Source: Balanoglossus misakiensis (taxonomy: Eukaryota > Animalia > Hemichordata). From it: a stretch of 64,000 nucleotides of DNA. Position 1 is the stretch's first letter; the number at the start of each line of letters is the position of its first letter. The position numbers and the translations under genes were made by a program. The DNA lies in the NCBI GenBank assembly GCA_040954595.2, contig CM082595.2, positions 1,364,535 through 1,428,534 on the forward strand, written 5' to 3'. A model generated the notes under the pieces. That model was given only the letters and a program-made list of their open reading frames with translations, was not told where the DNA came from and did not search any database. Below are positions 1,977 to 5,470 of this stretch, in pieces.

Positions 1977-4900
1977 ATGCCAAAATCCAAGAAGACTGGC
2001 GCTGCAGCTGGCAAGAGCAATTCCGAGTTCGACGTAATACGACCTTACTTTACAGAGAAAGAATGGAATGAAACTTCGGACTATGAGAAGGCAAGACTTC
2101 GAAATATCAAAGAAAATTACGAGATGATGATAGGGGTTGGTAAGGATGGGTTTTTATTTGTTTTAGAGAACTTGCGAATGATTGGATTTCAGAAATGAAC
2201 ATGTTCTGTTGTTCACCAAATACAAAACCATGTAGCTAAAGATTGTCTTGTTTTTTGGTTTGACAATGACGTCTAACACACAAACCAAGGCAAAACGTCG
2301 AATCTGATTTTAAATACACTTAATTTGTGTTAAAATATAGTGCTATCTTATAATTCAGGACTGGTTGTGGAAAAGCCAGAGTTCATGAATGGCCCTCGTG
2401 GTAGAAAACGTAAGCCAAAGATAATAGAAAGTGACAGTGAAGATGAAGAATGGTTTCCTGGATATGATAGAGTCAAAAACAAAAAAGGTAATAATGCATG
2501 TGAGTTTGAAGAAGATCTGGTACGAGAACTTTAAGTATATGAGGCAGAACTTGTTTTTATGAAAAGCTGATTTTTATGAACTCATTATAATCACCAGTGT
2601 AAATATCCTTGTCCATTTTCAGCTCATTTCTCAGCTCCATTGAAACCCCCACCTGAATTGAAAAAGCCAACAGTAAAACCACCCAAGGACATAAAGGTAA
2701 AGTAATTCCCAAACCTTGCACCATGCTAATATACTTACCTGGTATCCTGTTGTATTCTCCTAGATAAGATGCATGAACAGTACAATGTAATTTTGTTGAT
2801 TTTAATTGTAGGAAACGAAAGATAATGGAAATGGTGGTATTTCAGAGAAAAACAAGCAAAAAGGCAGAAAGAAGTGTGCGATGTCACTAAAAGTGAAAGA
2901 GGGTAGGAACTGACATTTCAAGTGTTAATTGTTATTGTTGGTCATGTGTGACTTGACTTTTCTTGTGTCTCAAAACATAAAATATTAACAGAATTGTTTC
3001 AGTCGGGAAATAATTAATTAATATTGTGTTTCACTCAAAATTAATGCCACAGATTGAGTTAGTAATGAAAATTAAAGCAATAATGTTTTTGGAAACTCTT
3101 AGCATTTGTAATGGCATGAGTTTATGAGTTCTGAAAGAGTCCTTATAACTTTCATGATTTGACTCTTGAACTTGCATGATTTTGACAAATTCATACAGAG
3201 CACAAGATATGCTTAATAATTATAATAATAATAATCATTTGCATTAAACATTTTTTTCAGTCAAAAAGACATCAAGTAGATATCCTAAACGACACGTTGA
3301 GAGAAAAAGTTACAGAGAGGCAGAAGTTCCAGATGATGACCACTACATATGTAAGTACATCATGCAAATCTCAAAAAATGTTCAAAGGGGAAAACAGAAA
3401 AAAAATCCTCATTTTTCATGTACGCTTTATATTTAATCACAAGTAGATTTTTTTCACATTCTACATTGGTGCTGTATAATATGTCAGTTTGTTGGTTCTG
3501 ATTAGAAATACAAATTAATCAGTATAACAATTACATGATAATATCCATTTTTTCAGACTGTGAGGACTGTGATGCATTCTTTGAAGGTGATTGTGCAAAA
3601 CATCCTTTCCAAATCATTGAAGATAAACCCATTCCTGAGGGATTTAAAGGAAGTAAGGCCAGAGCCAGTATACCAGATTGTCTGAGTATTGGAAAGTCTG
3701 GAATTAGAAATGCTGGTCTTGGTGTCTGGTCCGAGGAATCCTTACCAAAAGGCGTCAGATTTGGCCCATACAAAGGAGAAGAAGTTGATGTCGAGAAGGG
3801 CTATGACAGTGGATATGCTTGGCAGGTAATATATTTTACGTGAGAATAACTTGCATTGTTCAGCTGTTTCTGATACTTTCTTTGTTTTCATCACAGTCAT
3901 TATATAAAATTATTAAATGTTCAACATGAGCTGTTAAAGTTAAAAAAATTTTGATGTGTAGCTTTACGAAAAACAAGCCCTGCCAATGTACACCAGTGAA
4001 CATTGGAATTTTTTTCTATCAGTATTTGTTTCACAAAGTGTTTTCAGTACAATGTAAACTTTCTGATTGACTGAATTGCATAATAGTACCCAATAATGTC
4101 TTGTCCAATGTACTATGACCTCTCTTCGCTAAATGCATGTAGCAGTTGCTGTAAAAAGGTCTATGGTTTACTACAATCCAGAAACACAAACATTTGACAC
4201 CTATATATTTCAGATTTGTGGTGCTGACAGGAGAAGTGTTTTCATTGATGGAGAAGATGAAAACAAAGGAAACTGGATGAGATTTATAAATTGTGCTCGA
4301 AATGAAATTGAACAAAATCTTGTTGCATTTCAATACCATGGACAAATATTCTACAGAAGTTTCAAAGCTATTCCTAAAAATTGTGAACTACTTGTCTACT
4401 ATGGAGAGGAGTATGCAAAAGATTTAGGAATCAACACTAAGTTTGAAGATACATGTATGAAATTAATGAAAAGTAAGTGTCAAGTTTTATTTTTATTTTA
4501 ATGTAATGAACATTCAATTTTTCAGTTTTCCACTATGGAATAAGGGCATGAAAAAATGATAAATCTTGTTTTGTGTTTGTTTGTAGATGCAGGACTGAAA
4601 TGTCCTGCAGTGTTGGGTGGAAGTGATTGCTCAATGACTTTACAGAGTCGACACCGCTAGATTCTGCCCCATCAAAGCTGTATTTCCATAGATACAGCAG
4701 CATCATATAGTGTATGATGTTTGCATGGAAATGTGATGATCAAGAAGTATTGTTTTTTCACCTAAATGAAACCAGATAAACTAAATATATGTTTCCCCAC
4801 AGATAATACAGAAAATCAGCAAACACATTGTCGAGAGAAGTCACACAGTCATGGTATCAATGGAAAAGATAACTTGTCCATACACCGGCAGACTGACAAC

Positions 4901-5470
4901 AAGTGTGGTAAAGGGTTTATCGAGGCATCACTTTTACACAAACACAAGAGGTTACAAACTGGTGGAAAAAGTCACAAATGTCAGATCTGTGGAAAGTCAT
5001 TTACATGTTCAGGTAACCTACAAAAACACCAACGGATTCATACTGGGGAGAAACCCTTTCTGTGTGAATATTGTCAGAAGGGGTTTACACAGTTAGGTCA
5101 TCTACAAAGACACCAACGGATTCATACTGGTGAAAGACCATATGTTTGCAAGGAATGTCAGAAGAGCTTTACATGCTCAGGTCATCTACAGCAACACCAA
5201 CTTATTCACACTGGTCAAAAGCCATACAAATGTGAATATTGTCAGAAAAGGTTTACATGCTCAGGTAACCTACAACAACACCAACGTATTCACACTGGTC
5301 AAAAGCCATACAAATGTGAATATTGTCAGAAGAGCTTTACAAACTCAAGTCATCTACAAAGCCACCTACGGATTCACACTGGTGAAAAGCCATTCAAATG
5401 CAAGGATTGTCAGAAGAGGTTTACACAGTCGAGTAATCTACGAACACACGAACGCATTCACACTGGCTGA
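1977..5470 (+). CDS. PRDM9: PRDM9 (Meisetz) histone methyltransferase, full length: aKRAB, SSXRD, Zn knuckle, PR/SET, 6 C2H2 zinc fingers (~580 aa)
   Basis: Eight phase-consistent coding exons: 1977-2139, 2359-2487, 2623-2696, 2812-2902, 3261-3350, 3557-3825, 4214-4472, 4803-5470 (1743 nt). [51 protein letters not shown]...[39 protein letters not shown]. Knuckle: [25 protein letters not shown]...FGPYKG...[30 protein letters not shown]...[22 protein letters not shown]-type linked fingers in the last exon. Confidence 0.93.
4973..5467 (+). repeat. 84-bp zinc-finger minisatellite of PRDM9 (6 units)
   Basis: Six 28-aa C2H2 units in one exon. A 45-bp stretch is identical at 5203-5247 and 5287-5331 (84-bp offset). 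Confidence 0.9.

What the first reader, a model, noticed from the sequence alone, without database searches (positions are those of the whole stretch)
1977..5470. Complete, catalytically intact four-domain PRDM9 in an apparently invertebrate genome
Seen: all canonical modules (aKRAB, SSXRD, Zn knuckle plus PR/SET, C2H2 array in one terminal exon) splice in frame. The three tyrosines needed for activity in human PRDM9 (Y276, Y341, Y357) are retained in GPYKG, IFYRS and LVYYG. Established: in vertebrates this full architecture is the one associated with directing meiotic recombination hotspots through H3K4me3/H3K36me3; invertebrate orthologues exist but their hotspot role is largely untested. 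Inference: this animal may use PRDM9-directed hotspots, which would push the system outside vertebrates.
Basis: partly seen in the sequence, partly recalled or inferred. Interest (0 to 1): 0.85.

Follow-up and report, generated by a model that had tools for sequence, protein, structure and literature searches.

The report
Acorn-worm PRDM9 with stalled finger array
A likely acorn-worm genome carries an unbroken, predicted eight-exon copy of PRDM9, the gene that places recombination hotspots in mammals; such invertebrate copies are already known, and this one's six DNA-reading fingers are so unlike each other that it likely no longer drives fast-moving hotspots.

Summary
Observation confirmed. 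Eight GT-AG exons (1977-5470) give an open 580-aa aKRAB-SSXRD-knuckle-PR/SET-C2H2 protein. Y254/Y319/Y335 align with mouse Y276/Y341/Y357. The animal is likely a ptychoderid acorn worm.

It is not new: complete invertebrate PRDM9s are published for 28 cnidarians and for termites, and this scan noted them in urchins and an octopus.

It has six fingers. The share of diversity at DNA-contact columns is 0.25, below all 50 scored complete vertebrate PRDM9s (minimum 0.30). Between-finger DNA diversity is 0.25-0.27, above all 51 (maximum 0.213). The post-SET finger is absent and both array ends look decayed.

Best reading (0.55): a conserved, likely active methyltransferase whose array has largely stopped turning over, so likely not the main hotspot-setter. 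Against: fingers 4 and 5 still differ mainly at contact codons, and one cnidarian's sole complete copy scores equally low. Paralogues, ZCWPW1/2 and expression were untestable.

The parts
1600..2200 (.). CpG-rich promoter region, shared head-to-head with an upstream ubiquitin-domain gene; holds a predicted 5' non-coding exon
   Evidence: CpG o/e 1.03 versus 0.32 in 2200-5470; candidate donors at 1779 and 1851, acceptor at 1959
1977..2139 (+). Coding exon 1: start codon and aKRAB first part
   Evidence: ESM Atlas first hit is a KRAB cluster at 0.86, a lead only
2359..2487 (+). Exon 2: aKRAB second part and acidic SDSEDEEW motif
   Evidence: residues 17-88 are 59 of 71 identical to Saccoglossus P0010
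2623..2696 (+). Exon 3: linker beginning with an F-x-A-P motif also seen in Saccoglossus and urchin homologues
2812..2902 (+). Exon 4: unconserved linker, required for frame
   Evidence: only candidate passing the splice-site filter between exons 3 and 5
3261..3350 (+). Exon 5: SSXRD
   Evidence: 20 of 27 identical to Saccoglossus P0010
3557..3825 (+). Exon 6: zinc knuckle (C184, C187, C195, H198) and first half of PR/SET; Y254 codon at 3769-3771
4214..4472 (+). Exon 7: second half of PR/SET; Y319 at 4352-4354, Y335 at 4400-4402
4587..4660 (+). Candidate alternative acceptor in intron 7: a 36-nt cassette (to 4622) or a finger-less terminal exon; unverified
4803..5470 (+). Exon 8: short spacer, finger array, stop
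4874..4957 (+). Likely decayed finger in register with the array (second Cys and first His kept, first Cys and last His lost)
   Evidence: 12-bit partial match to a finger profile; DNA match to the array not significant, 89 of 500 shuffles
4958..5461 (+). Six intact C2H2 fingers, 84-bp period; contacts (-1,2,3,6) CGNK, QGHR, CGHQ, CGNQ, NSHS, QSNT
5462..5610 (+). Likely out-of-frame remnant of a seventh finger start, after the stop, split by the hairpin
   Evidence: flanks taken together match units 4 and 5 in 0 of 500 shuffles, unit 6 in 1 of 500, units 1-3 not significantly
5486..5595 (.). 110-bp near-perfect palindrome with 4-bp direct flanks, MITE-like; single copy in the window
   Evidence: -74.9 kcal/mol, 0 of 200 shuffles fold as well

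Best explanation
This is an unbroken, predicted eight-exon PRDM9 orthologue of a likely ptychoderid acorn worm, whose enzyme part is conserved and would likely still methylate H3K4 and H3K36, but whose six-finger DNA reader has likely largely stopped being reshuffled, so it likely marks a fixed set of sites rather than setting fast-moving recombination hotspots. Shown: open frame, domains, three tyrosines, divergent short array, missing post-SET finger. Inferred: splicing; germline expression; binding of a fixed motif of about 18 bp; histone marking next to it. Inferred from the Red Queen model: sites of an unchanging array erode by biased gene conversion, so breaks would mostly be placed by another PRDM9 copy (if one exists) or at promoters and CpG islands. 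The gene would then be kept for a residual or chromatin-regulatory role, or be a recently sidelined copy.
For: Array statistics. With the columns that Baker et al. label as DNA-binding, the proportion of diversity is 0.253 (5 units); my script gives mouse 0.901 and rat 0.566 against published 0.910 and 0.570. All 50 scored complete vertebrate orthologues in their Supplement 3B are 0.302 or higher (51 rows, 1 NA). Between-finger DNA diversity is 0.252-0.266, above all 51 rows (maximum 0.213). No two fingers are identical and pairs differ at 1-8 synonymous codons. Non-contact residue identity is 0.71, against 0.82-0.94 in 9 of 10 echinoderm arrays and 0.99 in mouse. Precedent: full-length trout PRDM9 alpha2.2 (r=0.367) is judged to have lost its hotspot role (PMC11703093). 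The post-SET finger is found by pattern in 29 of 39 named homologues but not here, in exon 8 or in any frame of intron 7. Both array ends look decayed. The enzyme half is conserved: aKRAB region 59 of 71 and second SET half 40 of 54 identical to Saccoglossus; end branch 0.46, no longer than the Saccoglossus side; CpG-rich promoter.
Against: Fingers 4 and 5 share a 38-nt identical run and differ at 8 of 12 contact against 4 of 72 other bases, the pattern of contact-focused change. With positions -1,2,3,6 the value is 0.288-0.315, equal to the floor of cnidarian full-length copies. Stylophora has 0.29 in its single complete copy, and the authors still regard those genes as functional. A snake scoring 0.302 ranked first of 194 finger genes in its genome, though with DNA diversity 0.07. 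Without finger 1 the DNA diversity drops to 0.212-0.233, level with the vertebrate maximum. No within-genome rank, no alleles and no paralogue count were obtainable. One assembled allele of six fingers is a small sample. Loss of the post-SET finger need not abolish activity (recalled from Thibault-Sennett 2018, not retrieved; one search found nothing).
Confidence: 0.55

Rival explanations
1. The gene is the animal's working hotspot-directing PRDM9: it binds its motif in meiocytes, deposits H3K4me3 and H3K36me3 and recruits the break machinery, with slower array turnover than in mammals or with this allele being atypical.
For: All four domains and three tyrosines. In vertebrates the complete architecture goes with rapid array evolution almost without exception (PMC5519329). 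The finger 4/5 pair shows contact-focused divergence. Low-scoring complete copies exist in cnidarians and snakes. Five of six fingers share a CQK motif absent from the Saccoglossus fingers, a sign of some past homogenisation.
Against: Lowest contact share and highest DNA diversity relative to all complete vertebrate rows seen. No identical finger pair. Decayed array ends and no post-SET finger.
Confidence: 0.3
2. The gene is an early-stage decaying duplicate, or its main transcript stops before or skips the finger exon, so no DNA-targeted enzyme is made.
For: A strong alternative acceptor at 4587 would give a finger-less product. Mouse has short finger-less isoforms (PMC2779102). Recent full-length duplicates are described as short-lived. 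Decay is seen at both array ends.
Against: No stop or frameshift in 580 codons. High conservation of all N-terminal domains. Fingers 4 and 5 are 21 of 28 identical to Saccoglossus PRDM9 fingers, against at most 17 in the 17 other arrays compared, so exon 8 likely belongs to this gene.
Confidence: 0.12

Closest known systems
Saccoglossus kowalevskii PRDM7/9-like models XP_006812034 (P0021, P0243) and XP_077867387 (P0010)
   Same: Sister group in the tree (SH-aLRT 99). aKRAB region 83% identical. Array also unhomogenised (0.22-0.26), with similar finger backbones.
   Different: Saccoglossus keeps the post-SET finger and extra flanking fingers, and has one identical finger pair. Its public models lack parts of the SET domain, whereas this one is complete.
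Mouse and human hotspot-directing PRDM9 (Q96EQ9 = P0220; PDB 4C1Q, 4IJD, 6NM4)
   Same: Domain order, knuckle ligands, three tyrosines; SET 61 of 114 identical to mouse. Best PDB match of both SET exons.
   Different: Mouse has 11 near-identical fingers (non-contact identity 0.99, proportion 0.83-0.90) and a post-SET finger; here there are 6 divergent fingers (0.71, 0.25-0.32) and none.
Cnidarian full-length PRDM9 (bioRxiv 10.64898/2026.09.07.749791)
   Same: Same exon plan: KRAB in two exons, SSXRD in one, SET in two, fingers in one. Tyrosines kept.
   Different: Their range is 0.29-1.0; this gene sits at the floor.
Rainbow trout PRDM9 alpha2.2 (PMC11703093)
   Same: Full length but with a low contact share (0.367), judged no longer hotspot-directing.
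   Different: There an active paralogue is known; here paralogues could not be sought.
Echinoderm PRDM9s (Lytechinus, Strongylocentrotus, Diadema, Asterias, Apostichopus, Anneissia)
   Same: Same ambulacrarian part of the tree; same N-terminal domains where the model is complete.
   Different: 9 of 10 arrays are homogenised (non-contact identity 0.82-0.94). Only the crinoid P0075 resembles this gene: 0.74, proportion 0.31, no post-SET finger.

Membership tests
PRDM9 (Prdm7/9) orthologue | Ancestral KRAB at the N-terminus | tested here: met
   Aligns with mouse, 0 of 1000 shuffles reach the score; strong match to Saccoglossus, urchin and lamprey; no direct Pfam hit
PRDM9 (Prdm7/9) orthologue | SSXRD before the knuckle | tested here: met
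   Aligns with the Pfam-defined mouse SSXRD, 0 of 1000 shuffles; no direct Pfam hit
PRDM9 (Prdm7/9) orthologue | PR/SET closer to PRDM9 than to other PRDMs | tested here: met
   Exon 7: PRDM9 90-92 bits, next PRDM14 66, PRDM11 53. Exon 6: PRDM9 60-64, PRDM11 31
PRDM9 (Prdm7/9) orthologue | Nests in the PRDM9 clade of a PRDM tree | tested here: inconclusive
   Quick IQ-TREE of 40 rows places it with Saccoglossus (99), but no verified non-PRDM9 outgroup was included and the careful run did not finish
PRDM9 (Prdm7/9) orthologue | Catalytic Y276, Y341, Y357 | tested here: met
   Y254, Y319, Y335
PRDM9 (Prdm7/9) orthologue | Tandem C2H2 array in one terminal exon | tested here: met
   Six fingers at 4958-5461
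PRDM9 (Prdm7/9) orthologue | Single post-SET finger (usual, but not one of the four canonical domains) | tested here: not met
   Absent from exon 8 and from intron 7; present in 29 of 39 named homologues by pattern
Hotspot-directing PRDM9 | Homogenised array with diversity concentrated at contact residues | tested here: not met
   Proportion 0.25 (Baker columns) or 0.29-0.32 (-1,2,3,6); DNA diversity 0.25-0.27. One pair of 15 shows the pattern strongly
Hotspot-directing PRDM9 | Top-ranked among the genome's finger genes; many alleles in the population | not testable with these tools
   No genome held; single assembled allele
Hotspot-directing PRDM9 | ZCWPW1 and ZCWPW2 present in the genome | not testable with these tools
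   No genome held
Hotspot-directing PRDM9 | Meiotic expression, H3K4me3/H3K36me3 deposition, allele-dependent breaks | not testable with these tools
   Needs gonad RNA, ChIP and DMC1-SSDS data; none examined

The most novel reading that the evidence does not exclude
Acorn worms, and perhaps lancelets, keep a complete, catalytically intact PRDM9 whose finger array has dropped out of Red Queen turnover lineage-wide. This copy, Saccoglossus and the lancelet arrays all score 0.14-0.32, while most echinoderm arrays are homogenised. They would be a natural experiment in which the full enzyme is retained for stable hotspots or for a non-recombination chromatin role, breaking the vertebrate rule that complete architecture goes with a fast array.
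Probability: 0.2. Interest if true: 0.6.

Novelty: new member of a known kind. Interest (0 to 1): 0.27.

Why it matters
As a gene it only fills in a taxon: complete invertebrate PRDM9s are already described. Its value is as a counter-example candidate. Having four domains and three tyrosines is often read as 'functional', yet here the array lacks the turnover signature. If hemichordates generally look like this, they let one test what PRDM9 does when it is not racing its own binding sites, in the sister group of echinoderms, whose arrays do turn over. It also gives a complete hemichordate model where the public Saccoglossus ones lack parts of the SET domain.

Tried and rejected
Whole genome: none held, so ZCWPW1/2, paralogues and a within-genome finger rank were not sought.

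Sequencing runs: no RNA holder listed; this is no evidence either way, and no reads were laid.

Pfam KRAB and SSXRD on single exons: no hit; replaced by pairwise tests.

Exon-6 homologue search gave 1 hit among 133 candidates, so that search is insensitive. No Ptychodera or Glandiceps PRDM9 was seen among named hits; most hits were never named, so this is not evidence of loss.

Finger-by-finger co-linearity with Saccoglossus: 28-30 of 720 permutations at the best of 3 offsets, but unrelated arrays scored as well or better. Rejected as evidence.

A hidden post-SET finger exon in intron 7: not found.

Metagenome scan: 3 loci from 276 candidate stretches, distant SET genes only. L001 and L003 break at the same exon boundaries.

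Structure prediction was not run, because the SET domain spans two exons and single-exon folds would add little.

Vertebrate origin was rejected.

Literature searches. 'PRDM9 + hemichordate' listed 2 papers, neither on hemichordate PRDM9 function by title; passages were read for one. The cnidarian preprint's supplements (97-species list) were not seen and may include a hemichordate.

Full report
Gene model. Reading 1-8000 and slicing by coordinates gives eight coding exons with canonical AG and GT ends, 1743 nt, 580 residues and one terminal stop. Introns are 115-388 nt and every intron frame is closed. Exon 4 is unconserved but is the only filtered candidate that keeps the frame between exons 3 and 5. 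The N-terminus has about the same length as the older Saccoglossus model P0243. The exon plan matches that described for cnidarian PRDM9, and two unnamed metagenome loci break at the same SET boundaries. Splicing is predicted only.

Domains. Both SET exons hit PRDM9 structures first, 24-29 bits above any other PRDM. Against mouse Q96EQ9, the knuckle ligands and Y276, Y341 and Y357 map to C184, C187, C195, H198 and Y254, Y319, Y335; 61 of 114 SET residues are identical. The KRAB and SSXRD alignments each exceed all 1000 shuffles. Pfam misses both here, and lists neither for the 11 invertebrate homologues scanned.

Organism. The convergent neighbour is DFFB. One exon is 79% identical to Ptychodera flava DFFB and 58% to Glandiceps; the six exon matches range from 68% to 91%. 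In a 40-row quick tree the protein is sister to the two Saccoglossus models (SH-aLRT 99), among echinoderms. That tree used a hand-picked subset of the proteins held, mostly named ones, and has no verified non-PRDM9 outgroup. Earlier notes on this genome also read it as an acorn worm. It is likely a ptychoderid hemichordate.

The array. There are six intact fingers. [quoted passage not shown] My script reproduces mouse (0.901 versus 0.910) and rat (0.566 versus 0.570). All 51 complete vertebrate rows were viewed: 50 have values, minimum 0.302; DNA diversity is at most 0.213, against 0.252-0.266 here (0.212-0.233 without finger 1). Among the named homologues, 9 of 10 echinoderm arrays are homogenised; the crinoid, Saccoglossus, lancelet, oyster and echidna arrays are not. 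The post-SET finger is found by pattern in 29 of 39 named homologues, also in P0015 by profile and in P0021 by inspection. It is absent here, in the crinoid and in a shark model; most of the remainder are truncated models. A likely dead finger precedes the array (DNA test not significant). After the stop lies a likely out-of-frame finger start split by a 110-bp palindrome with 4-bp direct flanks; I chose that junction after seeing the sequence.

Evidence against this reading. Fingers 4 and 5 share 38 identical bases and differ at 8 of 12 contact against 4 of 72 other bases; 4 further pairs of the 15 reach p near 0.01 or lower, uncorrected. Cnidarian complete copies go down to 0.29 and are regarded as functional by their authors. 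A snake at 0.302 ranks first in its genome. Rank, alleles and paralogues are unknown.

Mechanism. Established for vertebrates: the fingers bind a motif, SET trimethylates H3K4 and H3K36, breaks follow, sites erode and new arrays are favoured. Here the enzyme half is conserved and the promoter is CpG-rich in an otherwise CpG-depleted region, so a live gene is likely. An array that has largely stopped changing would have lost its best sites. The protein therefore likely marks a fixed set of loci and contributes little to hotspot placement (0.55), as argued for trout alpha2.2. An active hotspot role stays possible (0.3), as does early decay or a finger-less main isoform (0.12).

Prior knowledge and what I saw of each paper.
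- 10.64898/2026.09.07.749791: parts 1-5 of 7 plus passages; supplements not seen; complete PRDM9 in 28 of 28 cnidarians, one uncertain.
- PMC5519329: passages, parts 4-5 of 16, Supplement 3 rows.
- Passages only: PMC12047536 (termites: complete gene and hotspots, no motif link); PMC2779102 (concerted evolution in Nematostella, Lottia and Capitella); PMC4760075 (Prdm7/9 ancestral to bilaterians); PMC8835667 (aKRAB in protostomes); PMC11703093; PMC12500494 (role in amphioxus unknown); PMC8985178.
The scan itself noted complete PRDM9s in two urchin windows and a likely octopus, and none elsewhere in this genome's 87 annotated windows.

Verdict. The gene is real and correctly identified, and is a new member of a known kind. 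The hotspot inference is untested and is weakened by the array. Interest 0.27.

Noticed in passing
window 46693-64000: At least 17 kb of an 87-bp tandem satellite, 96-98% matching units, running off the window end. The gene lies about 41 kb from it.
   Followed up: no
window 6284-8902, minus strand: DFFB (CAD/DFF40) in six exon matches, convergent with PRDM9; 68-91% identical to Ptychodera flava DFFB. Useful synteny anchor.
   Followed up: partly
window 1-1700, minus strand: Gene with a ubiquitin-like exon (1103-1327) and a hydrophobic ORF near 248-436, head-to-head with PRDM9 across a CpG-rich promoter; nearest Atlas clusters are unnamed.
   Followed up: partly
window 27395-45100, plus strand: An 870-aa low-complexity ORF with no Pfam hit, followed by many short exons with weak Sfi1-repeat matches (below cut-off); likely one large SFI1-like gene.
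   Followed up: no
window 5486-5595: 110-bp palindrome with 4-bp direct flanks just after the stop, MITE-like; would form a long hairpin in the 3' UTR.
   Followed up: partly
P0021 and P0015 (Saccoglossus, lancelet): Both PRDM9 arrays are flanked by similar non-array fingers at each end, suggesting old conserved terminal fingers that this gene lacks.
   Followed up: no
PMC5519329 Supplement 3B header: The columns labelled DNA-binding (V11, V12, V15, V18) correspond to helix positions -2, -1, 3 and 6 in that register, not -1, 2, 3 and 6; values from later papers may not be directly comparable.
   Followed up: partly
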